Below are positions 2,424 through 62,092 of a DNA stretch of 64,000 bases, piece by piece. How positions within the stretch are numbered: position 1 is the first letter of the stretch; every line of letters begins with the position of its first letter. Origin of the DNA: Eledone cirrhosa. Taxonomy: Eukaryota. The translations under genes and the position numbers were made by a program. The notes beneath the pieces were generated by a model. That model ran no database searches. It saw only the letters and a list, made by a program, of their open reading frames with translations, and had not been told where the DNA came from. The stretch lies in assembly GCA_964016885.1 (NCBI GenBank), contig OZ024741.1, positions 239,444,001-239,508,000 of the forward strand, in the 5' to 3' direction.

Positions 2424-5400
2424 TTAACTAGCAACAACATCTGGTGTTGAAGGTAACTGTCTCTCTGGAGGTTTCACATATCTGTCTTGGTAATGGTCTC
2501 TCTCATTGTTACTTGACACATCAGGTGGGGCACCATAGATTCCTGAAACAAATACATCAACTCAACTTACCAAATAGTTCAGATAGACAGACAATAGGTA
2601 TTTACTGGCATTAGTTATCAATCATTTGTCTACTGCATTCATTGGTCTAATACAAAATAGCAATCATTAAAAAGGTTTTGACTGACCATCCCTAATACAC
2701 TGCAAAATCATAATCACATCAGTATGATAAATTCTTATAATGTAACAAACATGAGAACTGAAATTGCTTTACCTGACATTGCAGGTATTTCTTCATACTG
2801 TCTACTTGACCTTTCACTCCAGCATTGTCCACTACTCTTACGACTGGTCAATGTATCAGTGGGATAGTTAGCAGATGGTCTGTTGTCTCCATAAGATGTC
2901 ACCTCTATAGGTTGACTGTATTTCTGCTGTAAAATAAAGTTACAATACAATGTGTAAAAAGAAATCAAGTTTCTCTATGTACCTAAAATACAATAAATTT
3001 GTAGATATTGATGGGTATATTTATACTGTTGAATTATTGGACCTTTATATACAAAATTATCGATCCTTTTTATCTGACTATCTATCTATCATAACATAAA
3101 AAATATAACCAGTAAATGTTAACTAAAGCTGACAATCATCACAGAAATAATGTCAGCAACTTACTTGAATGGGTGCATGGTCGAGGCTCCAATTCCTCCC
3201 ACCTCTTCCATACAGCACTCCATATGGTCCACAATTTTACCAGCACTATATTACACGGTGTTGATGTGGATTGTGGCAGCCCAGAAATTTGCTACCTGGC
3301 ATATAGCAAATAAATATCTTATAGCTCACACTGGGGAAGAGAAGTGTACATGGCTTTTCTTAGACCTTTTATTGGGTTTAGTATAAGTTTATATTATGTT
3401 TGAATTTGTGGTGCAAGTGAATTTGTGAAGTAATAACAAGCAGGCAATTTGGCAGGTCTGTGTACAGAAGTACAGTTTATAGAGACATCTGAATAGTACA
3501 CAATAGGTATTCCCACAAAGGTAGCTAATATCCTATTAATATATGGTAACAATTCACATCTTAAAATGAATAGAATCATGCACAGCCACATATGAATGGA
3601 TCCTTTCATTCACTTTGTGAAGGCCTTGTACACGATTCATGTAAAAGCAAGTAACATAGAACAAGTAAATGTTGGATTATCATACGTTTGAAAATTTCAC
3701 AGGATACATTTTCATCTCCACATCATAATGATATTATTTCAACCAGATATTCTACACGACAAACCATTAATCAAACTGAAATTGTGAAATCTGAAATATT
3801 CAGATTTATCATTCTGAATTAAAGATGGAAAATATAAATAATAGACTTTACCTTTGTGGATTTCTGAAGAGATCTGTTCATTGTTGATGTCTTCCAGTCT
3901 TCAGGATAGTAATGGCTTCTAGACTGACTATATCTGTCTGATATCTCTCCTCGATTACCTGACATCACAGATACACTGTTGTTACCTTGATAGATCAACT
4001 GTCTCATCTCATTACGACATTGGTATGCCTGTTTCTCTTCTGTTGTTCTAGCTGAGTTATTTCTTACATTGTTACATCTCACAATACACAATGTTATAGA
4101 AACCACAATAGCTATAGATATTATCACAGCTGCTACTACAATGATAATCAACAATGTTGCATCTATTGTGTTATCAGTTGGTACATGGACAGCTGTGAAC
4201 ATTGGTGATGTCTTGTTACTAACAGTCAGTGTCAAAGAGACACTAGTTGTTGCTGACAGAACTGGAGTACCACTGTCTTTCACAACAAATTCCAGTTGAT
4301 ATGATCCGGCATCATTTTGGTAAACTGTACGAGAGTAAGATAAGACACCAGTGAATGAGTCCAGTTTAAATAATTGTCTCTCATTACCTGAAAGGATTTC
4401 ATACCTGAGAAAAGCATTCATGTGACTGTCTATATCAGAGGCTTTCAGAAGTGTGATGTCATTCTTACTTTGTGGATGATAGTGGACATCAAGAGTGAAA
4501 GGGTCAACACTAGGAAATGTAAAATATGGAGTATTATCATTTTTATCTAATACTTCCACTTCAACATTTACTGTGTTATTTAGAGATGGTGTTCCATTGT
4601 CTTTGACAAAAACCTCAAAGTCATAGAAATCTCTGTGTTCTCTGTCTAAAGACTGGTTTGTTGAAATAAAGCCAGAGTTGATAATCTGGAATGGTAGACG
4701 ATATTGGTGTTTATTTCTCAGATGATAACTTAATTCACCTCCCTTACCAGCATCTGGGTCTGTAGCATTGATAAAACCAATAGGGAAATTAGCTTTGTCA
4801 TTCTCATAGGTAAGGAACTTGAATGTATCTTTGGTAAAGTGTGGTTTTACATCATTCACATCTAACACTTGTATTGATAGATCTTTATCAGTTTTCAGAG
4901 AAGGTAATCCTTTATCTTGACAGGAGACAGTAAAGTGATAATGTTCCTGTGTCTCTCTGTCTACTGCTTTCTTTAGAACTATTTTATATTCTTTAGATCC
5001 CATTGACTGTAGTTTGAATGTATCATGTTTAATATTACAGCTGACCTCTCCATTGTGTCCAACATCATTGTCAGTGACCATCACATAAGCAATGAAACTA
5101 CCAACTTTGATATCTTCCAGAATGGTAGCTGTGTTGTGATTCTCTGTAGAAATATAGTTGACATCAATATTTGGAGGATTGTTGTGTTGGTTGATAACAT
5201 TTACCAGAACAGTTGCTATGGCACTGAGTGGTGGATTGCCATTATCTCTGGCTTCAATATATAATTTAAAAAATTCTTCATCAATTTGTGAAGATTTAGC
5301 TAAATATAATTTTCCTGTATTTTCATCTAAATCAAAATATTTTTTCACTTTCTCTGCAGTTTTTGTGGCAAAATAGAAAGATATTTTACCATTCCTACCA

Positions 5401-6200
5401 ATATCTAAATCATTGGCAGATAATGTCACTACTGGAATATTCTTTTTATGTTCATGTTCTATAGACACATTGTAGATACTTTGAGAAAATTCTGGTTTAT
5501 TATCATTTTCATCTTCTACAGATATTTTAACATTAAAAACACTTTGTTTTGGTGGAGTTCCTCCATCTTTAGCAATGACTTCAATATTGTAACTGTCTTT
5601 CTTTTCTCTGTCTAATTTCTTTTCTAAAATAATTTCTAATGTTGATATTCCACCAGCTTCCTTGGAAACACTTAATGCAAATTGCCCTTCATTATCTTTT
5701 AGTTCATATCTAATTAAGCTGTTCTCATATCCCACATCTTTGTCAACAGCATTGGGTATGGCCTTCTTCATACCATCTCGATCTCCTTCCCTAAACACTA
5801 GTGTAATGTCTTTCTCAGGAAACTCAGGTTGGTGGTCATTGATGTCTTCTATTATGACTTTAATTTTCAATATCTTCATAAATGTCTTGGATTTGTGAAC
5901 AGCAACTTTCACTATTTCAAAACATTCTTTCTCATAACTACACACAGACTCAGCATCCAATGTCTGAACAGTGTACAGTTTACCTGTTTTTGTCACATTA
6001 AACAATTGTTCTCCCTTTTGTTGTAGTTGACTAAATGTAATTAAATCCTTATTTTTTAAGAAGGAGCTATCTGATGTCTGTAAGTCAGTAGCAATGTCCC
6101 CTACATAAGTATAGGGATTTCTCTCTTCTTTAACATGGTATGTGATATGTTCACTTAGATAACAGTGGAAGAAAGTCAGTAAAATACACAGAGATAACAT
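2424..6200 (-). CDS. Protocadherin g1; coding exons 6200-3852, 2926/2923-2773, 2542-2424
   Basis: Signal peptide, six cadherin repeats (DxNDxxP, LDRE, AxDxG), EC1 C-x5-C, TM LLIIIVVAAVIISIAIVVSITLCIV. GT-AG introns of phase 0 then 1 join in frame to ...PDVVAS*. 5'UTR acceptor AG at 6250-6249. Confidence 0.95.
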
Positions 6201-7667: not shown

Positions 7668-7704
<37 letters not shown>

Positions 7705-7917
7705 CATACACACATATATATATATACACATACATACACATATATATATACACATACATACATACATATATATATACACATACATACATACATATATATA
7801 TACATATACACATATATATATATACACATACATACACATATATATATATATATATACACATACATACATACATATATATATACATATACACATAAATACG
7901 TATATGTATATATATAT

Positions 7918-8063: not shown

Positions 8064-8089
8064 ATACACATCCATACATACATACATAC

Positions 8090-8129
<40 letters not shown>

Positions 8130-13628: not shown

Positions 13629-15118
13629 TATATATACTCTACCTCAAGTCAAGTTATAATCTAAACATTTTGGATGTCTCCTTAAATAGAAATAATTCTT
13701 TAAAAGGATATCTTTCAACAATTAATTCATTTCTTTACTATACAAACAGCTTGCTTATGTGTTAAAAACAAATCTATCATTAAAATAATATTAAACCAGA
13801 CATCAGAAACCACTTTTTTATAACAGCTTAATTATACTAAATTGCTATATAAACATGTTGCTTATGTGTGAAAAAACACTTTTATATAACAGGGCTTAAT
13901 TACATTAAATTAAGACAATATTTGGCTGAAATGTTTTAATTTTGCATATAAAACCAAATATATTTTGTATGAATAACTAACTAATTTTAAATCATTAATC
14001 CTAATGTAAGATATATTTACTGAAAATAAATAATTTGATAAGCATTTGTTTCCTATAATTGAAAATAGATGTAACAACATGTAAAAATCTAAAACAAATT
14101 CTAAATTTAGTCCTGTAGATGAATATTTTTTATATCAAACCTACTAGATTGATGTTATTTAGCTCTATGTAAGCTCCTATACAGCAGACATATCAAAAGC
14201 ATTTCAGTCATGCCTCTATTGTTCAAAATATTGTACCTTTAAGCATTACAAAAGAAAATATATAACAGTTCAGGGATTTGTGTATGAATAGATAATGGGC
14301 AAGAGTTAATATAGATACCAATATTTGTTACAAAGATTTAAGGCCACAGATTCCTCATTTCTTTGCTAAATTGACATTCTCTAATTAAAGAGAAAAAAAA
14401 TCAATATCATTGGTAATTATTGAAATATCATAAATATGTCTACGTTACCACAAATGTGTTAAGATACATATATATGCATAAGTAAATCATCCACTGATAT
14501 ATATAAGGCATAATAGTAACTTAAATCATTCAAATGAATAATTTACAGAAAAGAAATTAATAAGCCTAATTTTAACATGAAATTATAGAAATCGTTAGAT
14601 TTATACATAAAGATTTACACACATTCACAGATCTCATGTATACACACATACACATAATCTATATGAAAATAATATTTCATTACCAATTTTCTTATATACA
14701 GTAATGTAGGTTTTACATAAATATTGTTAATAGATATTTCAATGATATTCTAGTTCAATATTTAGTATGTACTAAGACCCTACAATGTCTGACTGAATAA
14801 TTCAGTAAAAATATATAATGATGAGTTATGTTAAAATGTAATAAACAAGATAAATATTGTATATACATCAAAGATGACTGCAAATATTTTCAGAAGTATG
14901 TTATATAAAACTACAATTGAACATATATTCCTCTTTCTCTATCACTGTTTCTTACAAAATACTTGATAGCCATGTTGGTAAAGTAGACATTCAATGAGAA
15001 CTAACACAGATCTAATATGGCCACCATTACAATATTATATTTTGATGTTAGAATATAGCTATATATTAAATTTTTATTTTACATGAATAGACAGATAATA
15101 TAGTATAATAGAACTTAC

Positions 15119-15495
15119 ATTCATTGTGTAAAATCCTTTGTTATAAACTGTGAGTTGGTCCCAATGTTCTGTTAATGGTTGTCTGTGTCACTGCTGCTAT
15201 GGTGTGACAATGGCTTCATGTTGATGGAATAGTGTTGGTCGTGAGTCAGTGGGAACCAGCAGTTCCTCTCAGTCTTCTGTGTATGTGTGATGTTTACTGA
15301 GTGTGAGTGTGTGTGAGAGAGGTGAGGGAGGGTGATGCTTACTCCAGCCTCACTCAGACTAGATGTGTTTCCCCTCACAGAGAAGAGGGAGAGAGAGAGA
15401 AGACACTATATCAGCTCCACTAACAGTCAGCCATAATATGTCTATATAATACCAACATGTCTGATGTAGAGAGACTGACATAGAAATACTTAGAA
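15119..15495 (-). promoter_or_regulatory. Putative promoter + non-coding exon 1 of g1
   Basis: Conserved block; GTAAGT donor at 15118; predicted intron 6249-15118. Confidence 0.6.
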
Positions 15496-15935
15496 AATAG
15501 AGGGTATATTAACAAAATATGGCTGATGTTGTTAATGTGTGTGTACTATAAAATGTATTTTAAATGTTGACAATAATAGTTAGTGTGTCTGACCTAATTA
15601 TAATTTTACTCTTAAATTCAAGATATATTTAGGAAAATTTAGAGATGTTATGTTAACTATCTAAAATATATTTTCTAAAATGTTACCTATGTAAAATATA
15701 TAATTTATTCATATAAAAGTTAATTTATATTTTGAAATTTGAATAATAATTCCCTGGGAATAAAGTCTATTTATTATGATAGAGGAATTTACCCACTTTC
15801 ATAATTCCATTATAGTAAAGCAAACATATGATGATGATGATGAATATTATCAACTAACTAATATATTTCTATAATTTTAAATATTGTGTTAATGTTGAAG
15901 GTGATATTTCTGTTGTGTTAACTCCTCAGTCTGAC

Positions 15936-18900
15936 TTAACTAGCAACAACATCTGGTGTTGAAGGTAACTGTCTCTCTGGAGGTTTCACATATCTGTCTT
16001 GGTAATGGTCTCTCTCATTGTTGCTTGACACATCAGGTGGGACACCATAGATTCCTGAAACAAGTACATCAACTCAACTTACTACATAGTTCATATAGAT
16101 GCCATATATTTTCTGACTGAAATTAGTAATCAATCTCTTGTTTATTATATTCACTAAGCTAAGATATTTAATGTTCTTAGATGTAATCATTTCCATGATA
16201 TAATGATTAAAGGTTGACTGAGTATATAAGTCAGTTCCGTTAATGGTAATACACCCAGTGTATGATGTATACAGTGGTATATCTGTGTAGAAATATATAT
16301 TCACTTATAAAATTTATAAAGATTGATAGAAATAATATCAGATTATTTCATAATTGTGAAAATTAGAAATTATGAAAATCAAATAATGAAATTAATAACA
16401 GATAAGGATAAATAAAATTGTTTTACCTGACATTGCTGGTATTTCTTCATACTGTCTACTTGACCTTTCACTCCAGCACTGTCCACTGCTCTTACGACTG
16501 GTCAATGTATCAGTGGGATAGTTAGAAGATGGCCTGTTGTCTCCATAAGATGTCACTTCTATAGGTTGACTATATTTCTGCAGGACAATATAATTACAAT
16601 AAAGAACATAAAGATATCATTTAGGACATTATACCTGAAATATACCCAATATCTAGATATTGATGTGTACATGTATACTATTGAAATATTGGACCATTAT
16701 GTATAAAAGAATCAGTTGTATAGATCCTGTTTATTTGATCATTTGTCATTATACCAAATAAAATGTATCCAGTACAGGTTACAAATAATCATTTCATAGC
16801 TTACTCTGGATATAAACGTAGATGTAGCTTTTTAGGTCTATGTTAATGCATATGATATAAGTGGATGAATAAGCATGTTTTCAGTGCAAAGTTGAATTCA
16901 TAGCAGGCAGGAAATTTGGCATGTTTATCAACAGAAGTAGTTTCCAAAACAATCTGAAATTGTGTAAAATAGATGATACAACAAAGTTAAAATCCTATTG
17001 ACAAAGTTAATCTTGCTATAAATTACTAGATTCTGGCTCCACAGTGTATGACTGCATCATTGATTCAAGGCACTCATTAAAATCCATTTCCAGAAAATAC
17101 CTTACCATTTGGATTATTGTGTTTCAAAAGTAAATCATCATAACCTTATTTTTTTCAACCAGATATATTCTATACTAAAACCAATCAGAAAGTAAACGGA
17201 CTACCTACATTGGTAATTTTAAACAGTAACTGCAGAGTTGAAAATATTCAGCTGTTTCATTTTTAATTAAATGTTATTCAACAGATAGAAAATATTAGAT
17301 AGAGCTTACCTTTGTGGATTTCTGAAGAGATCTGTTCATTGTTGATATCTTCCAGTCTTCAGGATAGTAATGACTTCTAGACTGACTATATCTGTCTGAT
17401 ATCTCTCCTCGATTACCTGACATCACAGATACACTGTTGTTACCTTGATAGATCAACTGTCTCATCTCATTACGACATTGGTATGCCTGTTTCTCTTCTG
17501 TTGTTCTAGCTGAGTTATTTCTTACATTGTTACATCTCACAATACACAATGTTATAGAAACCACAATAGCTATAGATACTATCACAGCTGCTACTACAAT
17601 GATAATCAATAATGTTGCATCTATTGTGTTATCAGTTGGTACATGGACAGCTGTGAACATTGGTGATGTCTTGTTACTAACAGTCAGTGTTAAAGAGACA
17701 CTAGTTGCTGCTGACAGAACTGGAGTACCACTGTCTTTCACAACAAACTCCAGTTGATATGATCCAGCATCATTTTGGTAAACTGTGCGAGAGTAAGATA
17801 AGACACCAGTGAATGAGTCCAGTTTAAATAACTGTTTCTCATTACCTGAAAGGATTTCATACCTGAGAAAAGCATTCATGTGACTGTCTATATCAGAGGC
17901 TTTCAGAAGTGTGATGTCATTCTTACTTTGTGGATGATAGTGTATATCAAGAGAGAAAGGATCAACACTAGGAAATGTAAAATATGGAGCATTATCATTT
18001 TTATCTAATACTTCCACTTCAACATTCACTGTGTTATTTAGAGATGGTGTTCCATTGTCTTTGACTAAAACCTCAAAGTCATAGAAATCTCTGTGTTCTC
18101 TGTCTAAAGACTGGTTTGTTGAAATAAAGCCAGAGTTGATAATCTGGAATGGTAGACGATATTGGTGTTTATTTCTCAGATAATAACTTAATTCACCTCC
18201 CTTACCAACATCTGGGTCTGTAGCATTGATAAAACCAATAGGGAAATTAGCTTTGTCATTCTCATAGGTAAGGAACTTGAATGTATCTTTGGTAAAGTGT
18301 GGTTTTACATCATTCACATCTAAGACTTGTATTGAGAGATCTTTATCAGTTTTCAGAGAAGGTAATCCTTTATCTTGACAAGAGACAGTAAAGTGATAAT
18401 GTTCCCGTGTCTCTCTGTCTACTGCTTTCTTTAGAACTATTTTATATTCCTTAGATCCCATTGACTGTAGTTTGAATGTATCATGTTTGATATTACAGCT
18501 GACTTCTCCATTGTGTCCAACATCATTGTCAGTGACCATCACATAAGCAATGAAACTACCAACTTTGATATCTTCCAGAATGGTAGCTGTGTTATGATTC
18601 TCTGTAGAAATGTAGTTGACATCAATATTTGGAGGATTGTTGTGTTGGTTGATAACATTTACCAGAACAGTTGCTATGGCACTGAGTGGTGGACTGCCAT
18701 TATCTCTGGCTTCAATATATAATTTTAAAAATTCTTCTTTATCAATTTCTGAAGATTTAGCTAAATATAACTTTCCTGTATTTTCATCTAAATTAAAGTA
18801 TCTTTTCATTTTCTCTGCAGTTTTCGTAGCAAAATAGAAAGATATTTTACCATTCCTGCCAATATCTAAATCATTGGCAGATAATGTCACAACTGGAATA

Positions 18901-19661
18901 TTCTTTTTATGCTTATGTTCTATAGAGACATTGTAGATACTTTGAGAAAACTGTGGTTTATTATCATTTTCATCTTCTACAGATATTTTAACATTCAAAA
19001 TACTTTGTTTTGGTGGAGTTCCTCCATCTTTAGCAATAATTTCAATATTGTAACTGTCTTTCTTTTCTCTGTCTAATTTATCTTCTAAAATAATTTCTAA
19101 CGTTGATATTCCACCTGCTTGTTTGGAAACACTTAATGAAAATTGTCCTTCATTATCAAGAAGCTCATATTTAATTAGACTGTTCTCATATCCCACATCT
19201 TTATCAACCGCATTGGGTATTGATCTCTTGGTGTTTTTACTATCAGTTTCAGAAAACTGAATATTGACTTGTTCTGTTGGAAACTCAGGTTGGTGGTCAT
19301 TGATGTCTTCTATTATGACTTTAATTTTCAATATCTTCATAAATGTCTTGGATTTGTGAACAGCAACTTTCACTATTTCAAAACATTCTTTCTCATAACT
19401 ACACACAGACTCAGCATCCAATGTCTGAACAGTGTACAGTTTACCTGTTTTTGTCACATTAAACAATTGTTCTCCCTTTTGTTGTAGTTGACTAAATGTA
19501 ATTAAATCCTTATTCTTTAAGAAGGAGCTATCTGATGTCTGTAAGTCAGTAGCAATGTCCCCTACATAAGTATAGGGATTACTCTCTTCTTTAACATGGT
19601 ATGTGATATGTTCACTTAGATAACAGTGGAAGAAAGTCAGCAAAATACACAGAAATAACAT
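15936..19661 (-). CDS. Protocadherin g2; coding exons 19661-17310, 16577-16427, 16054-15936
   Basis: Same architecture and intron phases as g1; 5'UTR acceptor AG at 19711-19710. Confidence 0.95.
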
Positions 19662-23900: not shown

Positions 23901-26160
23901 TTTCTGCTGTAAAATAAAGTTACAATACAATGTGTAAAAAGAAATCAAGTTTGTCTATGTACCTAAAATACAATAAATTTGTAGATATTGATGGGTATAT
24001 TTATACTGTTGAATTATTGGACCTTTATATACAAAATTATCGATCCTTTTTATCTGACTACTATCTATCATAACATAAAAAATATAACCAGTAAATGTTA
24101 ACTAAAGCTGACAATCATCACAGAAATAATGTCAGCAACTTCTTACTTGAATGGGTGCATGGTCGAGGCTCCAATTCCTCCCATCTCTTCCATACAGCAC
24201 TCCATATGGTCCACAATTTTACCAGCACTATATTACACGGTGTTGATGTGGATTGTGGCAGCCCAGAAATTTGCTACCTGGCATATAGCAAATAAATATC
24301 TTATAGCTCACACTGGGGAAGAGAAGTGTACATGGCTTTTCTTAGACCTTTTATTGGGTTTAGTATAAGTTTATATTATGTTTGAATTTGTGGTGCAAGT
24401 GAATTTGTGAAGTAATAACAAGCAGGCAATTTGGCAGGTCTGTGTACAGAAGTACAGTTTATAGAGACATCTGAATAGTACACAATAGGTATTCCCACAA
24501 AGGTAGCTAATATCCTATTAATATATGGTAACAATTCACCCTTAAAATGAATAGAATCATGCACAGCCACATATGAATGGATCCTTTCATTCACTTTGTG
24601 AAGGCTTTGTACACGATTCATGTAAAAGCAAGTAACATAGAACAAGTAAATGTTGGATTATCATACGTTTGAAAATTTCACAGGATACATTTTCATCTCC
24701 ACATCATAATGATATTATTTCAACCAGATATTCTACACTACAAACCATTATTCAAACAGAAATTGTGAAATCTGAAATATTCAGATTTATCATTCTGAAT
24801 TAAAGATGGAAAATATAAATAATAGACTTTACCTTTGTGGATTTCTGAAGAGATCTGTTCATTGTTGATGTCTTCCAGTCTTCAGGATAGTAATGGCTTC
24901 TAGACTGACTATATCTGTCTGATATCTCTCCTCGATTACCTGACATCACAGCTACACTGTTGTTACCTTGATAGATCAACTGTCTCATCTCATTACGACA
25001 TTGGTATGCCTGTTTCTCTTCTGTTGTTCTAGCTGAGTTATTTCTTACATTGTTACATCTCACAATACACAATGTTATAGAAACCACAATAGCTATAGAT
25101 ATTATCACAGCTGCTACTACAATGATAATCAACAATGTTGCATCTATTGTGTTATCAGTTGGTACATGGACAGCTGTGAACATTGGTGATGTCTTGTTAC
25201 TAACAGTCAGTGTTAAAGAGACACTAGTTGTTGCTGACAGAACTGGAGTACCACTGTCTTTCACAACAAACTCCAGTTGATATGATCCGGCATCATTTTG
25301 GTAAACTGTACGAGAGTAAGATAAGACACCAGTGAATGAGTCCAGTTTAAATAATTGTCTCTCATTACCTGAAAGGATTTCATACCTGAGAAAAGCATTC
25401 ATGTGACTGTCTATATCAGAGGCTTTCAGAAGTGTGATGTCATTCTTACTTTGTGGATGATAGTGGACATCAAGAGAGAAAGGGTCAACACTAGGAAATG
25501 TAAAATATGGAGCATTATCATTTTTATCTAATACTTCCACTTCAACATTTACTGTGTTATTTAGAGATGGTGTTCCATTGTCTTTGACAAAAACCTCAAA
25601 GTCATAGAAATCTCTGTGTTCTCTGTCTAAAGACTGGTTTGTTGAAATAAAGCCAGAGTTGATAATCTGGAATGGTAGACGATATTGGTATTTATTTCTC
25701 AGATGATAACTTAATTCACCTCCCTTACCAGCATCTGGGTCTGTAGCATTGATAAAACCAATAGGGAAATTAGCTTTGTCATTCTCATAAGTAAGGAACT
25801 TGAATGTATCTTTGGTAAAGTGTGGTTTTACATCATTCACATCTAACACTTGTATTGAGAGATCTTTATCAGTTTTGAGAGGAGGTAATCCTTTATCTTG
25901 ACAGGAGACAGTAAAGTGATAATGTTCCTGTGTCTCTCTGTCTACTGCTTTCTTTAGAACTATTTTATATTCTTTAGATCCCATTGATTGTAGTTTGAAT
26001 GTATCATGTTTAATATTACAGCTGACTTCTCCATTGTGTCCAACATCATTGTCAGTGACCATCACATAAGCAATGAAACTACCAACTTTGATATCTTCCA
26101 GAATGGTAGCTGTGTTGTGATTCTCTGTAGAAATATAGTTGACATCAATATTTGGAGGAT
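20989..26160. repeat. Segmental duplicate of 1-~5180
   Basis: Near base-for-base identity, including introns and intergenic DNA, ending at the EC3/EC4 boundary. Confidence 0.9.
22591..22972 (-). promoter_or_regulatory. Putative promoter + non-coding exon 1 of g2
   Basis: Conserved block; GTAAGT donor at 22590; predicted intron 19710-22590. Confidence 0.6.
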
Positions 26161-27187
26161 TGTTCTGTTCACTGATAACATTTATCTGAATTATTGCAAG
26201 GGAACTGAGAGGAGAACTGCCATCATCTTTGGCTTCCACATATAATTTAAATTTCTGTTTTTTTCCAATTTCTAATGATTTTTTCAAGTATAATTTTCCA
26301 GTAATTTCATTCAAACGAAAATTATTTCTTGACTTTACATCTGTTTTCTGACTGAAATAGAAATATATTTTACCATTCCTACCAATATCTAAATCATTGG
26401 CAGATAATGTCACTATTGGAATATTTTTTTTATGGTCATGTTCCATAGAAACATTATAAATAGTCTGGGTAAATTGTGGTGTGTTATCATTTTCATCTTC
26501 TACAGATATTTTAACATTTAAAATACTTTGTTTTGGTGCAGTTCCTCCATCTTTTGCAATGACCTCAATATTGTAGCTGTCTTTATTTTCTCTGTCTAAT
26601 TTCTTTTCTAAAATGATACCTAATGTTGATATTTCATCAGCTAATTTTGATTGAGATAAGGAAAAATGTTCATCATTATTTTTTAATTCATATTTAATTA
26701 AACTGTTCTTAAAACCCACATCCTTATCAATGGCACTGGGTATTGTTTTCTTCATACCATCTCGATCTCCTTCACGAAACACTAAACTGATTTCTTTCTC
26801 AGGAAACTCAGGTTGGTGGTCATTGATGTCTTCTATTATGACTTTAATTTTTAAAATCTTCATAAATGTCTTGGATTTGTGAACAGCAACTTTAATTATT
26901 TCAAAACATTCTTTCTCATAACTACACACAGACTCAGCATCCAATGTCTGAACAGTGTACAGTTTACCTGTTTTTGTCACATTGAACAATTGTTCTCCCT
27001 TTTGTTGTAGTTGACTAAATGTAATTAAATCCTTATTCTTTAAGAAGGAGCTATCTGATGTCTGTAAGTCAGTAGCAATGTCCCCTACATAAGTATAGGG
27101 ATTTCTCTCTTCTTTAACATGGTATGTGATATCTTCACTCAGATAACAGTGGAAGAAAGTCAGTGAAATACACAGAAATAACAACAT
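23404..27187 (-). CDS. Protocadherin g3; coding exons 27187-24833, 23906/23903-23753, 23522-23404
   Basis: Same architecture; most divergent EC3; 5'UTR acceptor AG at 27244-27243. Confidence 0.95.
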
Positions 27188-32600: not shown

Positions 32601-34323
32601 GATAGTGTATATCAAGCGTGAAAGGGTCAACACTAGGAAATGTAAAATATGGAGCATTATCATTTTTATCTAATACTTCCACTTCAACATTCACTGTGTT
32701 ATTTAGAGATGGTGTTCCATTGTCTTTGACAAAAACCTCAAAGTCATAGAAATCTCTGTGTTCTCTGTCTAAAGATTGGTTTGTTGAAATAAAGCCAGAG
32801 TTGATAATCTGGAATGGTAGACGATATTGGTGTTTATTTCTCAGATGATAACTTAATTCACCTCCCTTACCAACATCTGGGTCTGTAGCATTGATAAAAC
32901 CAATAGGGAAATTAGCTTTGTCATTCTCATAGGTAAGGAACTTGAATGTATCTTTGGTAAAGTGTGGTTTTACATCATTCACATCTAACACTTGTATTGA
33001 GAGATCTTTATCAGTTTTGAGAGGAGGTAATCCTTTATCTTGACAGGAGACAGTGAAGTGATAATGTTCCTGTGTCTCTCTGTCTACTGCTTTCTTTAGA
33101 ACTATTTTATATTCTTTAGATCCCATTGACTGTAGTTTGAATGTATCATGTTTAATATTACAGCTGACCTCTCCATTGTGTCCAACATCATTGTCAGTGA
33201 CCATCACATAAGCAATGAAACTACCAACTTTGATATCTTCCAGAATGGTAGCTGTGTTGTGATTCTCTGTAGAAATATAGTTGACATCAATATTTGGAGG
33301 ATTGTTGTGTTGGTTGATAACATTTACCAGAACAGTTGCTATGGCACTGAGTGGTGGATTGCCATTATCTCTGGCTTCAATATATAATTTAAAAAATTCT
33401 TCATCAATTTCTGAAGATTTAGCTAAATATAATTTTCCTGTATTTTCATCTAAATCAAAATATTTTTTCACTTTCTCTGCAGTTTTTGTGGCAAAATAGA
33501 AAGATATTTTACCATTCCTACCAATATCTAAATCATTGGCAGATAATGTCACTACTGGAATATTCTTTTTATGTTCATGTTCTATAGACACATTGTAGAT
33601 ACTTTGAGAAAATTCTGGTTTATTATCATTTTCATCTTCTACAGATATTTTAACATTAAAAACACTTCGTTTTGGTGGAGTTCCTCCATCTTTAGCAATG
33701 ACTTCAATGTTGTAACTGTCTTTCTTTTCTCTGTCTAATTTCTTTTCTAAAATAATTTCTAATGTTGATATTCCACCAGCTTCCTTGGAAACACTTAATG
33801 CAAATTGCCCTTCATTATCTTTTAGTTCATATCTAATTAGGCTGTTCTCATATCCCACATCTTTGTCAACCGCATTGGGTATGGCTTTCTTCATACCTCT
33901 ACCATCTCCTTCCCTAAACACTAGTGTAATGTCTTTCTCAGGAAACTCAGGTTGGTGGTCATTGATGTCTTCTATTATGACTTTAATTTTCAATATCTTC
34001 ATAAATGTCTTGGATTTGTGAACAGCAACTTTAACTATTTCAAAACATTCTTTCTCATAACTACACACAGACTCAGCATCCAATGTCTGAACAGTGTACA
34101 GTTTACCTGTTTTTGTCACATTAAACAATTGTTCTCCCTTTTGTTGTAGTTGACTAAATGTAATTAAATCCTTATTTTTTAAGAAGGAGCTATCTGATGT
34201 CTGTAAGTCAGTAGCAATGTCCCCTACATAAGTATAGGGATTTCTCTCTTCTTTAACATGGTATGTGATATGTTCACTTAGATAACAGTGGAAGAAAGTC
34301 AGTAAAATACACAGAGATAACAT
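29686..34323 (-). CDS. Protocadherin g4; coding exons 34323-31975, 30699/30696-30546, 29804-29686
   Basis: Same architecture; ectodomain nearly identical to g1; 5'UTR acceptor AG at 34373-34372. Confidence 0.95.
30310..30440 (-). mobile_element. Degraded SINE head fragment in a g4 intron
   Basis: ctatagtagaagacatttg..gtgcagtgggatagaatc resembles the reverse complement of a tRNA-derived SINE head; absent from the other paralogs. Confidence 0.45.
31235..31415 (-). mobile_element. tRNA-derived SINE with Nin/Deu-like core
   Basis: - strand: A-box-like tggcggtatcgg, B-box agttcaaatccc, core gcctttcatccttacggggtcg; fragments also at ~29975-30030 and 62650-62790. Confidence 0.7.
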
Positions 34324-49400: not shown

Positions 49401-52400
49401 ATGTATACACACATACACATAATCTATATGAAAATAATATTTCATTACCAATTTTCTTATATACAGTAATGTAGGTTTTACATAAATATTGTTAATAGAT
49501 ATTTCAATGATATTCTAGTTCAATATTTAGTATGTACTAAGACCCTACAATGTCTGACTGAATAATTCAGTAAAAATATATAATGATGAGTTATGTTAAA
49601 ATGTAATAAACAAGATAAATATTGTATATACATCAAAGATGACTGCAAATATTTTCAGAAGTATGTTATATAAAACTACAATTGAACATATATTCCTCTT
49701 TCTCTATCACTGTTTCTTACAAAATAGTTGATAGCCATGTTGGTAAAGTAGACATTCAATGAGAACTAACACAGATCTAATATGGCCACCATTACAATAT
49801 TATATTTTGATGTTAGAATATAGCTATATATTAAATTTTTATTTTACATGAATAGACAGATAATATAGTATAATAGAACTTACATTCATTGTGTAAAATC
49901 CTTTGTTATAAACTGTGAGTTGGTCCCAATGTTCTGTTAATGGTTGTCTGTGTCACTGCTGCTATGGTGTGACAATGGCTTCATGTTGATGGAATAGTGT
50001 TGGTAGTGAGTCAGTGGGAACCAGCAGTTCCTCTCAGTCTTTGGTGTATGTGTGATGTTTACTGAGTGTGAGTGTGTGTGAGAGAGAGAGAGGTGGGGGA
50101 GGGGGAGGCTTACTCCAGCCTCACTCAGACTAGATGTGTTTCCCCTCACAGAGAAGAGGGAGAGAGAGAGAGAAGACACTATATCAGCTCCACTAACAGT
50201 CAGCCATAATATGTCTATATAATACCAACATGTCTGATGTAGAGAGACTGACATAGAAATACTTAGAAAATAGAGGGTATATTAACAAAATATGGCTGAT
50301 GTTAATGTGTGTGTACTATAAAATGTATTTTAAATGTTGACAATAATAGTTAGTGTGTCTGACCTAATTATAATTTAACTCTTAAATTCAAGATATATTT
50401 AGGAAAATTTAGAGATGTTATGTTAACTATCTAAAATATATTTTCTAAAATGTTACCTATGTAAAATATATAATTTATTCATATAAAAGTTAATTTATAT
50501 TTTGAAATTTGAATAATAATTCCCTGGGAATAAAGTCTATTTATTATGATAGAGGAATTTACCCACTTTCATAATTCCATTATAGTAAAGCAAACATATG
50601 ATGATGATGATGAATATTATCAACTAACTAATATATTTCTATAATTTTAAATATTGTGTTAATGTTGAAGGTGATATTTCTGTTGTGTTAACTCCTCAGT
50701 CTGACTTAACTAGCAACAACATCTGGTGTTGAAGGTAACTGTCTCTCTGGAGGTTTCACATATCTGTCTTGGTAATGGTCTCTCTCATTGTTGCTTGACA
50801 CATCAGGTGGGACACCATAGATTCCTGAAACAAGTACATCAACTCAACTTACTACATAGTTCATATAGATGCCATATATTTTCTGACTGAAATTAGTAAT
50901 CAATCTCTTGTTTATTATATTCACTAAGCTAAGATATTTAATGTTCTTAGATGTAATCATTTCCATGATATAATGATTAAAGGTTGACTGAGTATATAAG
51001 TCAGTTCCGTTAATGGTAATACACCCAGTGTATGATGTATACAGTGGTATATCTGTGTAGAAATATATATTCACTTATTATAAAATTTATAAAGATTGAT
51101 AGAAATAATATCAGATTATTTCATAATTGTGAAAATTAGAAATTATGAAAATCAAATAATGAAATTAATAACAGATAAGGATAAATAAAATTGTTTTACC
51201 TGACATTGCTGGTATTTCTTCATACTGTCTACTTGACCTTTCACTCCAGCACTGTCCACTGCTCTTACGACTGGTCAATGTATCAGTGGGATAGTTAGAA
51301 GATGGCCTGTTGTCTCCATAAGATGTCACTTCTATAGGTTGACTATATTTCTGCAGGACAATATAATTACAATAAAGAACATAAAGATATCATTTAGGAC
51401 ATTATACCTGAAATATACCCAATATCTAGATATTGATGTGTACATGTATACTATTGAAATATTGGACCATTATGTATAAAAGAATCAGTTGTATAGATCC
51501 TGTTTATTTGATCATTTGTCATTATACCAAATAAAATGTATCCAGTACAGGTTACAAATAATCATTTCATAGCTTACTCTGGATATAAACGTAGATGTAG
51601 CTTTTTAGGTCTATGTTAATGCATATGATATAAGTGGATGAATAAGCATGTTTTCAGTGCAAAGTTGAATTCATAGCAGGCAGGAAATTTGGCATGTTTA
51701 TCAACAGAAGTAGTTTCCAAAACAATCTGAAATTGTGTAAAATAGATGATACAACAAAGTTAAAATCCTATTGACAAAGTTAATCTTGCTATAAATTACT
51801 AGATTCTGGCTCCACAGTGTATGACTGCATCATTGATTCAAGGCACTCATTAAAATCCATTTCCAGAAAATACCTTACCATTTGGATTATTGTGTTTCAA
51901 AAGTAAATCATCATAACCTTATTTTTTTCAACCAGATATATTCTATACTAAAACCAATCAGAAAGTAAACGGACTACCTACATTGGTAATTTTAAACAGT
52001 AACTGCAGAGTTGAAAATATTCAGCTGTTTCATTTTTAATTAAATGTTATTCAACAGATAGAAAATATTAGATAGAGCTTACCTTTGTGGATTTCTGAAG
52101 AGATCTGTTCATTGTTGATATCTTCCAGTCTTCAGGATAGTAATGACTTCTAGACTGACTATATCTGTCTGATATCTCTCCTCGATTACCTGACATCACA
52201 GATACACTGTTGTTACCTTGATAGATCAACTGTCTCATCTCATTACGACATTGGTATGCCTGTTTCTCTTCTGTTGTTCTAGCTGAGTTATTTCTTACAT
52301 TGTTACATCTCACAATACACAATGTTATAGAAACCACAATAGCTATAGATACTATCACAGCTGCTACTACAATGATAATCAATAATGTTGCATCTATTGT

Positions 52401-53400
52401 GTTATCAGTTGGTACATGGACAGCTGTGAACATTGGTGATGTCTTGTTACTAACAGTCAGTGTTAAAGAGACACTAGTTGTTGCTGACAGAACTGGAGTA
52501 CCACTGTCTTTCACAACAAACTCCAGTTGATATGATCCAGCATCATTTTGGTAAACTGTGCGAGAGTAAGATAAGACACCAGTGAATGAGTCCAGTTTAA
52601 ATAATTGTCTCTCATTACCTGAAAGGATTTCATACCTGAGAAATGCATTCATGTGACTGTCTATATCAGAGGCTTTCAGAAGTGTGATGTCATTCTTACT
52701 TTGGGGATGATAGTGGACATCAAGAGTGAAAGGGTCAACACTAGGAAATGTAAAATATGGAGCATTATCATTTTTATCTAATACTTCCACTTCAACATTC
52801 ACTGTGTTATTTAGAGATGGTGTTCCATTGTCTTTGACAAAAACCTCAAAGTCATAAAAATCTCTGTGTTCTCTGTCTAAAGACTTGTTTGTTGAAATAA
52901 AGCCGGAGTGGATAATCTGGAATGGTAGATGATATTTGTGTTTATTTCTCAGATAATAACTTAATTCACCTCCCTTACCAACATCTGGGTCTGTAGCATT
53001 GATAAAACCAATAGGGAAATTAGCTTTGTCATTCTCATAGGTAAGGAACTTGAATGTATCTTTGGTAAAGTGTGGTTTTACATCATTCACATCTAACACT
53101 TGTATTGAGAGATCTTTATCAGTTTTCAGAGGAGGTAATCCTTTATCTTGACAGGAGACAGTGAAGTGATAATGTTCCTGTGTCTCTCTGTCTACTGCTT
53201 CCTTTAGAACTATTTTATATTCTTTAGATCCCATTGACTGTAGTTTGAATGTATCATGTTTGATATTACAGCTGACTTCTCCATTGTGTCCAACATCATT
53301 GTCAGTGACCATCACATAAGCAATGAAACTACCAACTTTGATATCTTCCAGAATGGTAGCTGTGTTGTGATTCTCTGTAGAAATATAGTTGACATCAATA
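46432..53400. repeat. Segmental duplicate of ~11553-18620
   Basis: Near identity through TE remnants, exon-1 block, tail exons and introns, up to EC4 of g5/g2. Confidence 0.9.
49884..50268 (-). promoter_or_regulatory. Putative promoter + non-coding exon 1 of g4
   Basis: Conserved block; GTAAGT donor at 49883; predicted intron 34372-49883. Confidence 0.6.
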
Positions 53401-54434
53401 TTTGGAGGATTATTGTGTTGGTTGATAACATTTACCATCACAGTTGCTATGGCACTAAGAGGAGGGATGCCTCCATCTCTGGCTTCAATATATAATTTTA
53501 AAGTGTTTTTTGTGTTACTTTCTAATGGTTTTATTAAGAAGATTTCCCCAGTATTTTCATCAATATTAAAGTATCCTTTCATCTTCTCATTAGTTTTCTG
53601 ACTAAAATCGAATGATATTTTACCATTCCTGCCAATATCTAAATCAACGGCAGATAATGTCACTACTGGAATATTCTTTTTATGTTTATGTTCTATAGAA
53701 ACATTATAGATTGTCTGGGCAAATTGTGGGGTATTATCATTTTCATCTTCTACAGATATTTTAACATTTAAAATACTTTGTTTTGGTGGAGTTCCTCCAT
53801 CTTTAGCAATGACTTCAATATTGTAACTGTCTTCTTTTTCTCTGTCTAATTTCTTTTCTAAAATAATTCTTACAGTTGATATTCCATCTGCACGTTTTGA
53901 AACTGATAAAGAAAAATGGCCATTATCTTTTTTTAACTTATATGTAATTAAACTGTTTTGATACCCAATGTCTTTGTCTACAGCATTTTCTATTGATCTT
54001 TTGGTGCCTTTTCCATCAGTTTCAGAAAACTGTATATTGACTTGTTCAGTTGGAAATTTAGGTTCGTGGTCATTGATGTCTTCTATTATGACTTTAATTT
54101 TTAATATCTTCATAAATGTCTTGGATTTGTGAACAGCAACTTTAACTATTTCAAAACATTCTTTCTCATAACTACACACAGACTCAGCATCTAATGTCTG
54201 AACAGTGTACAGTTTACCTGTTTTTGTCACATTGAACAATTGTTCTCCTTTTTGTTGTAGTTGACTGAATGTAATTAAATCCTTATTCTTTAAGAAGGAG
54301 CTATCTGATGTCTGTAAGTCAGTAGCAATGTCCCCTACATAAGTATAGGGAATACTCTCTTCTTTAACGTGGTATGTGATATGTTCACTTAGATAACAGT
54401 GGAAGAAAGTCAGTAAAATACACAGAAATAACAT
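50706..54434 (-). CDS. Protocadherin g5; coding exons 54434-52083, 51350-51200, 50824-50706
   Basis: Same architecture; 5'UTR acceptor AG at 54493-54492. Confidence 0.95.
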
Positions 54435-58378: not shown

Positions 58379-61300
58379 TTAACTAGCAACAACATCTGGT
58401 GTTGAAGGTAACTGTCTCTCTGGAGGTTTCACATATCTGTCTTGGTAATGGTCTCTCTCATTGTTGCTTGATACATCAGGTGGGACACCATAGATTCCTG
58501 AAACAAGTACATCAACTCAATTTACCATAAAGTTCATAGAGACACAATAGATATTTACTGACGAACATTAGTAATCAATATCTTGTCTACAAGGTTCAAT
58601 AGACTTCCATTCTGTTTTCTCCTGACATTGACACCAATTTGAGAGACTCCTGCATCACAGCATGTGTAGTACAGCTGAACCTCCCTAGTGCAAGCCACAA
58701 TGGACTCTTCCTTCAGGCTGCTAAAAGAGAACTTCAACTTGTAATAATCATGCAGGGCAATGCTGATGAACTGAAATTTTGCATTCTGAAAATTAAATTT
58801 TAATAGTCTAACCCATGCCAGCATGGAGAAACATTTTAAATGATGATGATGTCATAACAAATTGCTTTACCTGACATTGCTGGTATTTCTTCATACTGTC
58901 TACTTGACCTCTCACTCCAGCACTGTCCACTACTCTTACGACTGGTCAATGTATCAGTGGGATAGTGAGAAGATGGTCTGTTGTCTCCATAAGATGTCAC
59001 CTCTATAGGTTGACTGTATTTCTGCTGTAAAATATAGTTACAATATGAAGTGTAAAGATATTTAATATAAATTTTGAGGTGAAATATACCAAATACCTAG
59101 ACATTGGCAGGTAAATGTGTGATGTTTAATAGGATACCAATATCTAGATGTTTTTTATTTGACAACTTTCAATCCTAACATAGAAAATGTAACTACTATA
59201 CATTGCAAATAACTATTTTATAGTTTACTCAAATGAATAAAGGTCCACATGGCTTTTTAGGCCTCAACTTTAATGGTGATCATGTAAATTTATATTGTGT
59301 GTGGGTTTGCAATGCAAGGTATGAGTAATAAGAAGTACAGAATTGGGAAGGTTTGTCTTCTGGATTACAGGTGAGAAGAATCTGAATACTACAAAGTAGG
59401 GTGATTTACAATTTTAAAAACCTATTGAGAAATAAATTGTATTCTGCAATGTATGAATATATCCATGAGTCTCTTGGAGGTAGCCTTGTTAGAGATTCAT
59501 TTTCTAACAAATACCTTACAACATGCAAACAGCAGTAAATCAAGGATTGACTCACAAAAATAAACAGATTAGACTTTTATCTCCACATCATAATGATATA
59601 TTTCTAGTCACAGATATTATATACTAAAAACACTGGGAAAATAAACATGCCTAAATTAACAATATAAATAATCTATGAATTTTAATAATCTATGAAATTA
59701 AAGATTATTTCTTAACAGGTGAAAAATATAAAATAGACTTTACCTTTGTGGATTTCTGAAGAGATCTGTTCATTGTTGATGTCTTCCAGTCTTCAGGATA
59801 GTAATGGCTTCTAGACTGACTATATCTGTCTGATATCTCTCCTCGATTACCTGACATCACAGATACACTGTTGTTACCTTGATAAATCAACTGTCTCATC
59901 TCATTACGACATTGGTATGCCTGTTTCTCTTCTGTTGTTCTAGCTGAGTTATTTCTTACATTGTTACATCTCACAATACACAATGTTATAGAAACCACAA
60001 TAGCTATAGATACTATCACAGCTGCTACTACAATGATAATCAACAATGTTGCATCTATTGTGTTATCAGTTGGTACATGGACAGCTGTGAACATTGGTGA
60101 TGTCTTGTTACTAACAGTCAGTGTTAAAGAGACACTAGTTGCTGCTGACAGAACTGGAGTACCACTGTCTTTCACAACAAACTCCAGTTGATATGATCCA
60201 GCATCATTTTGGTAAACTGTGCGAGAGTAAGATAAGACACCAGTGAATGAGTCCAGTTTAAATAACTGTCTCTCATTACCTGAAAGGATTTCATACCTGA
60301 GAAAAGCATTCATGTGACTGTCTATATCAGAGGCTTTCAGAAGTGTGATGTCATTCTTACTTTGTGGATGATAGTGTATATCAAGAGAGAAAGGATCAAC
60401 ACTAGGAAATGTAAAATATGGAGCATTATCATTTTTATCTAATACTTCCACTTCAACATTCACTGTGTTATTTAGAGATGGTGTTCCATTGTCTTTGACT
60501 AAAACCTCAAAGTCATAGAAATCTCTGTGTTCTCTGTCTAAAGACTGGTTTGTTGAAATAAAGCCAGAGTTGATAATCTGGAATGGTAGACGATATTGGT
60601 GTTTATTTCTCAGATAATAACTTAATTCACCTCCCTTACCAGCATCTGGGTCTGTAGCATTGATAAAACCAATAGGGAAATTAGCTTTGTCATTTTCATA
60701 GGTAAGGAACTTGAATGTATCTTTGGTAAAGTGTGGTTTTACATCATTCACATCTAACACTTGTATTGAGAGATCTTTATCAGTTTTCAGAGAAGGTAAT
60801 CCTTTATCTTGACAAGAGACAGTAAAGTGATAATGTTCCTGTGTCTCTCTGTCTACTGCTTTCTTTAGAACTATTTTATATTCTTTAGATCCCATTGACT
60901 GTAGTTTGAATGTATCATGTTTGATATTACAGCTGACTTCTCCATTGTGTCCAACATCATTGTCAGTGACCATCACATAAGCAATGAAACTACCAACTTT
61001 GATATCTTCCAGAATGGTAGCTGTGTTGTGATTCTCTGTAGAAATATAGTTGACATCAATAATTGGAGGATTGTTGTGTTGGTTGATAACATTTACCATA
61101 ACAGTTGCTATGGAACTGAGAGGTGGACTGCCATTATCTCTGGCTTCTATGTATAATTTAAAAGACTTTTCCAAATCAATTTCTGAAGATTTAGCTAAAT
61201 ATAACTTTCCAGTATTTTCATCTAAATCAAAGAATCTTTTCATTTTCTCTGAAGTTTTCCTTGTGAAATAAAAAGATATTTTACCATTCCTACCAATATC

Positions 61301-62092
61301 TAAATCATTGGCAGATAATGTCACTACTGGAATATTCTTTTTATGTTTGTGTTCAATAGAAACATTATAGATACTTTGAGAAAATTGTGGTGGGTTATCA
61401 TTTTCATCTTCTACAGATATTTTAACATTTAAAATACTTTGTTTTGGAGGAGTTCCTCCATCTTTAGCAATGACCTCAACATTGTAGCTGTCTTCCTTTT
61501 CTCTGTCTAATTTTTCTTTCAAAATAATTCCTATTGTTGATATTTCATCAGTTTGTTTAGAAACTGATAAAGAAAAATATGCATTATACTTTTTTAATTC
61601 ATATTTAATTAAGCTGTTCTGATACCCAACATCTTTATCAACAGCATTTTCTATTGATCTTTTGGTGCCTTTACCATCAGTTTCAGAAAACTGAATATCA
61701 ACATGTTCAGTTGGAAACTCAGGTTGGTGGTCATTGATGTCTTCTATTATGACTTTAATTTTTAATATCTTCATAAATGTCTTGGATTTGTGAACAGCAA
61801 CTTTAACTATTTCAAAACATTCTTTCTCATAACTACACACAGACTCAGCATCCAATGTCTGAACAGTGTACAGTTTACCTGTTTTTGTCACATTGAACAA
61901 TTGTTCTCCTTTTTGTTGTAGTTGACTAAATGTAATTAAATCCTTATTCTTTAAGGAGCTATCTGATGTCTGTAAGTCAGTAGCAATGTCCCCTACATAA
62001 GTATAGGGATTACTCTCTTCTTTAACATGGTATGCGATATGTTCACTTAGATAACAGTGGAAGAAAGTCAGTAAAATACACAGAAATAACAT
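58379..62092 (-). CDS. Protocadherin g6; coding exons 62092-59744, 59024/59021-58871, 58497-58379
   Basis: Same architecture; ATG at 62092 aligns with the paralog starts; 5'UTR acceptor AG at 62149-62148. Confidence 0.95.

What the first reader, a model, noticed from the sequence alone, without database searches (positions are those of the whole stretch)
18630..19283. EC2-EC3 sub-blocks are combinatorially shuffled
Seen: EC2 start is EKxIxLVFREGD in g1/g3/g4 but TExVxIQFSETD in g2/g5/g6. EC2 middle DNEGQF..AGGISTLE groups g1/g2/g4. EC3 LAKSS(E/Q)ID groups g1/g2/g4/g6, versus TPQFxQT..FSQKT in g3/g5. The groupings conflict, so g2, g3 and g6 are mosaics. Inference: conserved cadherin motifs act as recombination anchors that generate new specificities.
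Basis: partly seen in the sequence, partly recalled or inferred. Interest (0 to 1): 0.72.

Follow-up and report, generated by a model that had tools for sequence, protein, structure and literature searches.

The report
Octopus protocadherin recognition-domain shuffling
In a tandem array of 32 octopus-type nerve-cell adhesion genes, the two domains that likely set partner choice are patchworks of old DNA pieces traded between neighbouring genes; one short piece is swapped almost freely while the rest stay partly coupled, which would give a way to make new self-recognition codes without new mutations.

Summary
All quoted motifs are present. The six genes belong to a 32-gene octopod protocadherin sub-array whose EC1 and EC4-to-tail are homogenised (dS 0.02-0.09) while EC2-EC3 stay diverse (dS 0.52/0.38). 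Recombination inside EC2-EC3 is strong: block-tree conflict 632 log-units against a no-recombination maximum of 25; 30 of 32 genes are significant mosaics. Corrections: g2 and g6 are mosaics but g3 is not shown to be (g1/g4 are). Shuffling is not free: the EC2 A-B strand block (about 70 bp) is uncoupled from everything, but the rest of EC2 and EC3 stay partly co-inherited, also across species. Switching is about 2-2.7 times enriched in conserved stretches, yet it is also frequent inside variable blocks, so 'anchors' holds only in part. Block types are shared with Argonauta and Octopus. One EC2/EC3 residue pair (161/280) is never basic in both positions in 202 proteins, a possible trans contact. 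New binding specificities are untested. Gene conversion in octopus protocadherins was already suggested in print. This scan reported similar patterns earlier in this array and in two other sub-arrays of this genome.

The parts
17295..19661 (-). g2 first coding exon ORF (signal peptide, EC1-EC6, TM, proximal tail; splice donor after codon 784)
19293..19613 (-). EC1 (aa 17-123), homogenised across 32 genes (dS 0.078)
19206..19280 (-). B1: EC2 A-B strands and AB loop (aa 128-152); three old types (EGD..G[ML]KK, ETD..[GN]TKR, ERD..GSKL); uncoupled from all other blocks and from array position
   Evidence: strands from the model
19182..19220 (-). B1/B2 boundary zone (aa 148-160, holds the AxDxD motif); linkage with B1 type falls from r2 0.87 to at most 0.30
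19077..19196 (-). B2: EC2 C-D-E strands and DE loop (aa 156-195)
19179..19181 (-). codon 161 (S in all six window genes; R in 9 of 32 array genes), covaries with 280
18876..19076 (-). B3: LDRE-AxDxGxP-DxNDN and EC3 A-B (aa 196-262); aa 196-234 is conserved, has low pS (0.23) and the highest fitted switch rate
18642..18875 (-). B4: EC3 C strand, CD helix, through FG loop (aa 263-340)
18822..18824 (-). codon 280 (K in all six window genes; T in the same 9 of 32 genes that have R161)
17310..18632 (-). EC4 to proximal tail, 97-98% identical across the array and species-specific; likely zone of unequal crossover (g2 switches from L007-like to g5-like between aa 526 and about 632)
16425..16580 (-). 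g2's own exon 2
15939..16055 (-). g2's own exon 3 (approximate ends)
3819..6200 (-). g1 exon 1: EC1-EC3 twin of g4, 3' region twin of g3
24800..27187 (-). g3 exon 1: divergent EC2-EC3 lineage also seen in L006, Argonauta P0019 and O. vulgaris P0025
31945..34323 (-). g4 exon 1
33898..33903 (-). g4 codons 141-142 GGT AGA against g1 CGA GAT: a 6-bp patch between otherwise near-identical cassettes; both versions occur letter for letter in several other paralogs
52068..54434 (-). g5 exon 1; its 3' region is 99.3% identical to that of g2
59705..62092 (-). g6 exon 1; significant mosaic

Best explanation
These are tandem octopod protocadherin genes whose EC2-EC3 coding region is a patchwork shared among paralogs, most likely made by ectopic gene conversion and unequal crossing-over and likely filtered by selection on a cell-to-cell binding surface. 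Step 1 (shown): EC1 and EC4-to-tail are homogenised within each species, while EC2-EC3 keep old variants shared between species. Step 2 (shown by intron and promoter twins): whole 5' halves (promoter through EC3) were exchanged by crossovers in EC5-EC6. Step 3 (shown): short tracts are traded inside EC2-EC3; switching is about 2-2.7-fold enriched in conserved stretches but not confined to them. Step 4 (shown): the EC2 A-B block is reassorted freely onto a handful of longer-lived B2-B3-B4 backbones. Step 5 (inferred from vertebrate structures): the traded blocks carry the positions that face the partner in an antiparallel EC1-4 dimer, so reassortment would change recognition; selection would keep old variants and remove clashing combinations such as basic 161 with basic 280.
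For: dS by domain. Between-species differentiation is 0.73-0.84 for EC4-tail but 0.05-0.24 for the EC2-3 blocks. PHI, AU, simulation and triplet tests. A synonymous Pro128 codon is linked to B1 type (p=0.002) and codons are shared letter for letter, which argues for descent over convergence. Intron-1 twins g1/g3 (99%) and g2/g5 (100%) have very different EC2-3; promoter twin g2/L007 shares EC1-3 with 1 difference. A 223-nt short-read contig bridges g2's B1/B2 junction with 1 difference. All 9 of 9 B1 x B4 type combinations occur among 30 non-twin genes. B1-B2 Mantel r <= 0.06 arose in 0.2% of 515 matched uniform-conversion simulations. Variable positions 135, 149, 279 and 323 align approximately to gammaB 111, 125, 253 and 294, which are named trans-contact pairs. 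Pair 161x280 ranks 1 of 1054 EC2xEC3 pairs here and 1 of 682 in Argonauta with different residues; basic+basic occurs in 0 of 202 proteins, about 21 expected.
Against: Pairwise pN/pS is below 1 in every block (0.50-0.61 in the variable ones), so diversifying selection is not demonstrated. The vertebrate-homologous pairs 135x323 and 149x279 do not covary (p 0.37 and 0.93), and B1 shows no association with any of 85 downstream columns; strict lock-and-key on B1 would predict some. A perfect long-range pair appears in 14-30% of neutral simulations with low to similar background linkage, and the independent-pairs test gives 4-5 to 0, p=0.06. Position 161 is not among the vertebrate contacts in the passages I read. 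The synonymous-only PHI signal is modest. My searches found no binding study of octopod protocadherins.
Confidence: 0.68

Rival explanations
1. Neutral patchwork: conversion acts along the whole gene but is slowed where sequences have already diverged, so EC2-EC3 are mosaic as a by-product and the combinations do not change binding; B2-B4 coupling is only shared history.
For: pN/pS < 1 throughout. B2 and B4 distance correlates with distance along the array (r 0.20, 0.32). Neutral simulations often give one perfect long-range pair. In the neighbouring 29-gene sub-array, B1 type does not cross between two diverged backbones, as homology dependence predicts.
Against: The same amino-acid block types persist in Argonauta and three Octopus species while flanking domains turned over. 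B2-B4 coupling survives control for array distance (partial r 0.35, p=0.004). 161x280 ranks first in two species with different residues.
Confidence: 0.2
2. One reading: conserved cadherin motifs are dedicated recombination anchors and all EC2-EC3 sub-blocks assort freely to make new specificities.
For: Switch-rate enrichment in conserved and motif stretches. The B1 boundaries coincide with DxNDxxPxF and AxDxD. Synonymous diversity is low in motif stretches 196-234 and 251-276.
Against: B2-B3-B4 stay coupled. Uncorrected, about half of the fitted switching is in variable stretches (my arithmetic). Micro-patches occur inside B1. The main boundary (aa 154-167) is not a DNA-identity island (pS 0.55).
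Confidence: 0.08
3. Artefact or convergence: the mosaics are assembly chimeras of near-identical genes, or repeated mutation at a few surface positions mimics block sharing.
For: Exons are 98% identical over 1.3 kb, a hard case for assembly. g2 and L007 are identical over the 1327 upstream bases compared.
Against: A short-read contig spans g2's junction. The duplicated spacer has about twice the contig depth of a single-copy spacer in three runs of one sample, which is weak evidence. All 32 genes have intact frames and mostly distinct introns. Multi-codon DNA tracts with linked synonymous sites are shared. The same patchwork is seen in Argonauta proteins.
Confidence: 0.04

Closest known systems
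Coleoid protocadherin sub-arrays (PMC9068888, PMC6339937, PMC9795677; passages read)
   Same: Tandem, same-strand, multi-exon full-gene duplicates; these papers already suggest duplication plus homogenisation by gene conversion (PMC9068888, PMC6339937).
   Different: The passages give no domain-level or within-EC2-EC3 analysis. Here homogenisation is domain-restricted, EC2-EC3 are themselves patchworks, and block types cross species.
Regional gene conversion in vertebrate clustered protocadherins (fugu PMC1852091, Xenopus PMC4978886, PMC4828864; passages read; Noonan 2004 seen only as cited there)
   Same: Membrane-proximal ectodomains homogenised; EC2-EC3 the most diverse.
   Different: Those passages say EC2-EC3 seldom or do not undergo conversion; here they do, in a reassorting way. 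No shared constant exons here.
Vertebrate protocadherin antiparallel EC1-4 trans dimer (PMC5001838 passages; PMC5106212 passages and section 10; bioRxiv 10.1101/493106 passages and section 6; PMC8901172 passages)
   Same: Same fold; the variable positions align approximately with named EC2:EC3 contacts.
   Different: Binding mode is not established for octopods; EC1 and EC4 are nearly invariant here; two homologous contact pairs do not covary.
Dscam1 exon expansion by staggered homologous recombination (one passage citing Lee et al. 2010 in PMC12431208); MHC-style patchwork conversion (recalled, not checked)
   Same: Ectopic recombination between tandem copies remodels a recognition repertoire.
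   Different: Unrelated proteins; here whole genes, not alternative exons, and the exchanged unit is part of a domain.

Membership tests
Coleoid (octopod) clustered protocadherins | Six cadherin repeats, TM and cytoplasmic tail; protocadherin-type EC1 | tested here: met
   Pfam Cadherin x5 plus Cadherin_2; linker motifs; top PDB fold matches are protocadherins
Coleoid (octopod) clustered protocadherins | Tandem same-orientation sub-array | tested here: met
   33 close hits on the minus strand within about 290 kb; 32 analysed as one group
Coleoid (octopod) clustered protocadherins | Full-gene duplicates, each with its own 3' exons | tested here: met
   6 of 6 window genes have their own exons 2 and 3
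Coleoid (octopod) clustered protocadherins | Nearest relatives are octopod protocadherins | tested here: met
   Top hits are Octopus and Argonauta, 68-84% over aa 100-360 for the first 22
Vertebrate clustered protocadherins (alpha/beta/gamma) | Variable first exons spliced to shared constant exons (alpha, gamma) or single-exon genes (beta; recalled) | tested here: not met
   Each gene carries its own exons 2-3
Vertebrate clustered protocadherins (alpha/beta/gamma) | Regional homogenisation outside EC2-EC3 | tested here: met
   dS 0.02-0.09 against 0.52/0.38
Vertebrate clustered protocadherins (alpha/beta/gamma) | EC2-EC3 largely spared from conversion | tested here: not met
Vertebrate clustered protocadherins (alpha/beta/gamma) | Strictly homophilic antiparallel EC1-4 trans binding | not testable with these tools
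   Needs a binding assay or solved structure; sequence covariation is mixed
Vertebrate clustered protocadherins (alpha/beta/gamma) | Stochastic promoter choice (CTCF/CSE) | not tested
   Outside this finding
Vertebrate clustered protocadherins (alpha/beta/gamma) | Orthology | not tested
   PMC4978886 passage calls the octopus clusters convergent

The most novel reading that the evidence does not exclude
Octopods run a modular self-recognition code made by recombination. A trans-species set of EC2 A-B 'cassettes' is swapped at high rate onto co-adapted EC2/EC3 backbones, each new combination being a new homophilic identity, with trans-contact pairs such as 161/280 policing which mosaics survive. 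This is the opposite of vertebrates, where EC2-EC3 are reported to be shielded from conversion.
Probability: 0.35. Interest if true: 0.8.

Novelty: new variant of a known kind. Interest (0 to 1): 0.52.

Why it matters
If the binding step holds, it explains how cephalopods diversify neuronal adhesion codes without vertebrate-style splicing. It also supplies natural, ready-made chimeras (L021/L023/L024 share B2-B4 but carry three B1 types; g1 vs g2) and a named residue pair, which make cephalopod protocadherin specificity directly testable. Independently of function, whole-gene trees and distance-based dates for octopod protocadherin expansions (such as the 8-14 Ma burst in PMC9795677) likely reflect homogenisation rather than gene age, because exons are 97-98% alike while most introns and promoters are 75-90% alike or unalignable.

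Tried and rejected
Shared constant exons (a vertebrate-like layout): rejected, each gene has its own exons 2-3. Homodimer prediction of EC1-4: no answer, score 0.00, alignment not used; no evidence either way. The monomer model (pLDDT 87) gave secondary structure only, so no distances were measured. Covariation of B1 with the EC3 FG loop: none. Of 15 candidate pairs tested, 147x278 (p=0.007), 147x279 (0.016) and 135x321 (0.035) were nominal only. Charge anticorrelation of 183-184 with 279-280 held here (r -0.63) and in Argonauta (-0.68) but not in 9 Octopus proteins (-0.16); it was one of six window pairs tried. EC1 SNPs are not linked to B1 type (23 EC1 site rows, none significant), so no sign that tracts start in EC1. 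The exact-tract list (225 tracts in 406 pairs, median 37 bp) is weighted to variable sites and was not used for breakpoint location. Positive selection was only looked at as pairwise pN/pS; no site model was run. Sequencing-run rows with small shares were not used. Three papers (Noonan 2004, Rubinstein 2015, Albertin 2015) were not available, and no supplements were read; the supplement of Albertin 2015 may already describe domain-level conversion.

Full report
What it is. The window holds six minus-strand ORFs of 788-795 aa with five Cadherin hits plus a protocadherin EC1 in the two scanned; each of the six has its own second and third exon. A search of the own genome found 33 hits at 65% or more identity to g2's EC2-EC3 within about 290 kb, and at least 150 matches genome-wide. 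I fetched 80 loci of those matches and analysed 32 genes as one sub-array (26 fetched plus six in the window; L027 at the edge left out as divergent). The closest database proteins are octopod (Octopus, Argonauta), at most 84% identical over aa 100-360. The finding's coordinates are EC2-EC3 of g2.

Observation. Every quoted motif grouping is present. Across 32 genes dS is 0.52 in EC2 and 0.38 in EC3 but 0.016-0.085 in EC1, EC4-6, TM and tail. PHI is significant for all sites (six genes z 8.5-11; 32 genes z 15-22); for synonymous-only sites it is significant only for 32 genes at 100 bp (p=0.004; p=0.16 at 50 bp; six genes not significant). With four blocks (B1 aa 124-153, B2 154-200, B3 201-262, B4 263-343), each block of the 32-gene set rejects every other block's tree by AU; in six genes the clear conflict is B1 against the rest. 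Because a block always fits its own tree best, I simulated without recombination: observed gain 632 against mean 7.7 and maximum 25.2 (20 replicates); six genes 18.5 against maximum 3.4. A max-descent triplet test (exact p for the six best-screened triplets per child, near-twins excluded as parents, Bonferroni) of 32 genes mosaic; g3 and g5 are the exceptions. g3's combination also appears in Argonauta P0019 and, for B2-B4, in O. vulgaris P0025, so it looks like an old lineage rather than a recent mosaic. Such tests cannot always tell child from parent.

Not an assembly artefact, as far as testable. A 223-nt contig from a public run bridges g2's B1/B2 junction with one difference; that run may be of the assembled individual. 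Pieces of the spacer that the assembly shows twice have contig depth about 16 against about 8.5 for a single-copy spacer in two runs, and about 9.5 against 4-5 (one piece 11.5) in a third, all of one sample. Heterozygosity could mimic this, so it is weak support.

Two levels of exchange. Non-coding DNA gives an independent frame. g1 and g3 share their 3' region (99.1% over 3.8 kb) and g2 and g5 theirs (99.3% over 4.6 kb), while g2 and L007 share the upstream region (100% over 1327 bp) and EC1-EC3 (1 difference), and g1 and g4 differ at 11 sites in EC2-3. g2 matches its 5' twin at all 15 diagnostic sites from aa 350 to 526 and mostly its 3' twin from aa 604 on; g1 switches similarly around aa 500. 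So whole 5' halves moved by crossovers in homogenised EC5-EC6 (inference). Inside EC2-EC3 the patches are short: five of the 11 g1/g4 differences lie in codons 141-142, and both versions occur letter for letter in other paralogs. L021, L023 and L024 share B2-B4 but carry three different B1 types.

Anchor test. A copying model with two switch rates (30 genes, two twins dropped) gave 0.038 per bp in variable and 0.061 in conserved stretches, ratio 1.60. Forward simulations with uniform breakpoints gave 0.33-0.97 (40 runs) and 0.27-0.97 (40 runs matched for diversity and bracketing the switch rate). For eight canonical motifs the ratio was 1.33 against maxima of 1.03 and 1.22. So there is roughly a 2-2.7-fold bias to conserved stretches relative to the null means, but switching inside variable stretches is frequent. 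Linkage with B1 type is 0.76-1.0 at many sites in codons 128-147, 0.23-0.45 at 148-152 and at most 0.30 beyond, so the main boundary is at the AxDxD motif, although that zone is not homogeneous in DNA (pS 0.55 for aa 154-167). The test cannot separate repair-level homology dependence from selection for intact A-B strand pairs.

Shuffling is uneven. Among 30 non-twin genes all 9 of 9 B1 x B4 type combinations occur, and B1 type is associated with none of 85 downstream columns in 29 genes. DNA Mantel r is 0.07 or less in size for B1 with every other region, but 0.37 (B2-B3), 0.38 (B2-B4) and 0.26 (B3-B4), little changed by array distance. At protein level B2-B4 is 0.39 here and 0.71 in 16 Argonauta proteins, with cross-species r 0.16-0.30; in Argonauta B1 keeps weak coupling (r about 0.25). 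B1-B2 r <= 0.06 occurred in 0.2% of 515 uniform-conversion simulations with comparable B2-B4 coupling. In a neighbouring 29-gene sub-array, variation is concentrated in the EC2 A-B region and the EC3 FG loop, and B1 types do not cross between two backbones of 21 and 8 genes.

The variants are old. Differentiation from Argonauta and O. sinensis is 0.73-0.84 for EC4 to tail but 0.07/0.05 for B1 and 0.15-0.24 for B2-B4; 15 of 24 B1 columns are polymorphic for the same residues in this species and Argonauta. The three B1 types also recur in sub-arrays only 54-60% identical in EC2.

Link to function (inferred). The EC1-4 model (pLDDT 87) matches protocadherin structures. By the phmmer alignment to gammaB4, g2 positions 135, 149, 279 and 323 correspond approximately to gammaB 111, 125, 253 and 294, given as EC2:EC3 contact pairs in PMC5106212 section 10; all four vary in the array. 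Those two pairs do not covary here. The top long-range pair is 161x280 (first seen): S/K in 23 and R/T in 9 of 32 genes; in Argonauta basic 161 goes with Q or E at 280 in 6 of 6 and non-basic 161 with K in 9 of 10; it ranks first of 1054 and of 682 EC2xEC3 pairs; basic+basic occurs in 0 of 202 proteins (86 own, 116 database entries), about 21 expected. By cadherin strand topology (my knowledge plus the model's secondary structure) 161 lies at the EC1-proximal end of EC2 and 280 at the EC4-proximal end of EC3: far apart in one chain, close in an antiparallel dimer. Against this: a perfect long-range pair arises in 14-30% of neutral simulations with low to similar background linkage, the nine R/T genes may have one origin, independent pairs give 4-5 to 0 (p=0.06), and pN/pS is below 1 in all blocks. 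All six window genes are S161/K280, so this signal comes from the wider array.

Literature. PMC9068888 and PMC6339937 (passages) already suggest conversion in octopus protocadherins at whole-gene level; PMC9795677 (passages) has no occurrence of 'conversion' or 'recombination'. Vertebrate papers (passages) describe homogenised C-terminal ectodomains with EC2-EC3 spared. Eight protocadherin full-text searches (most hits seen only as listings) turned up no paper describing within-EC2-EC3 reassortment or binding tests in cephalopods. The library lacks most subscription journals, three key papers were not available, and no supplements were read.

Verdict. Mosaicism is real (about 0.95). The anchor idea is partly right, free combinatorial assortment is wrong except for the EC2 A-B block, and new specificity is plausible but untested. 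New variant of a known kind; interest 0.52.

Noticed in passing
window 8444-11209 (+) and 34956-36581 (+): Long open frames that look like LINE-type reverse transcriptase (my recognition of motifs, not searched), next to TA-rich microsatellites; the two copies are only 72% alike and sit in the related spacers g2-g1 and g5-g4.
   Followed up: no
L028-L037 (G000:C2:239.28-239.37 Mb): Six neighbouring genes (L032-L037) with EC1-EC3 only 53-66% identical to the main sub-array share EC4-to-tail at 97-98% with it: the 3' homogenisation domain is wider than the EC1 one.
   Followed up: partly
L042-L070 (G000:C2:239.96-240.23 Mb): A 29-gene sub-array with two interspersed EC2-EC3 backbones (21 and 8 genes) that do not exchange B1 types; variation is concentrated in the EC2 A-B region and the EC3 FG loop.
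   Followed up: partly
window 1-3819 / 20989-24800 and 12747-17295 / 47512-52068: Recent duplications at 99% identity whose unit is 'the 3' half of one gene, the spacer and the 5' half of the next', not a whole gene.
   Followed up: yes
   Followed up: no
L073 (G000:C2:239914928): A nine-residue insertion duplicating the EC2-EC3 linker motif.
   Followed up: no
exon 2 acceptor of the array genes: Database proteins show the tail beginning with either QKY or KY, which suggests a tandem (NAGNAG-type) acceptor.
   Followed up: no
window 6337-8860, 37800-46540: Very long TA/CA microsatellite arrays that give spurious long ORFs.
   Followed up: no
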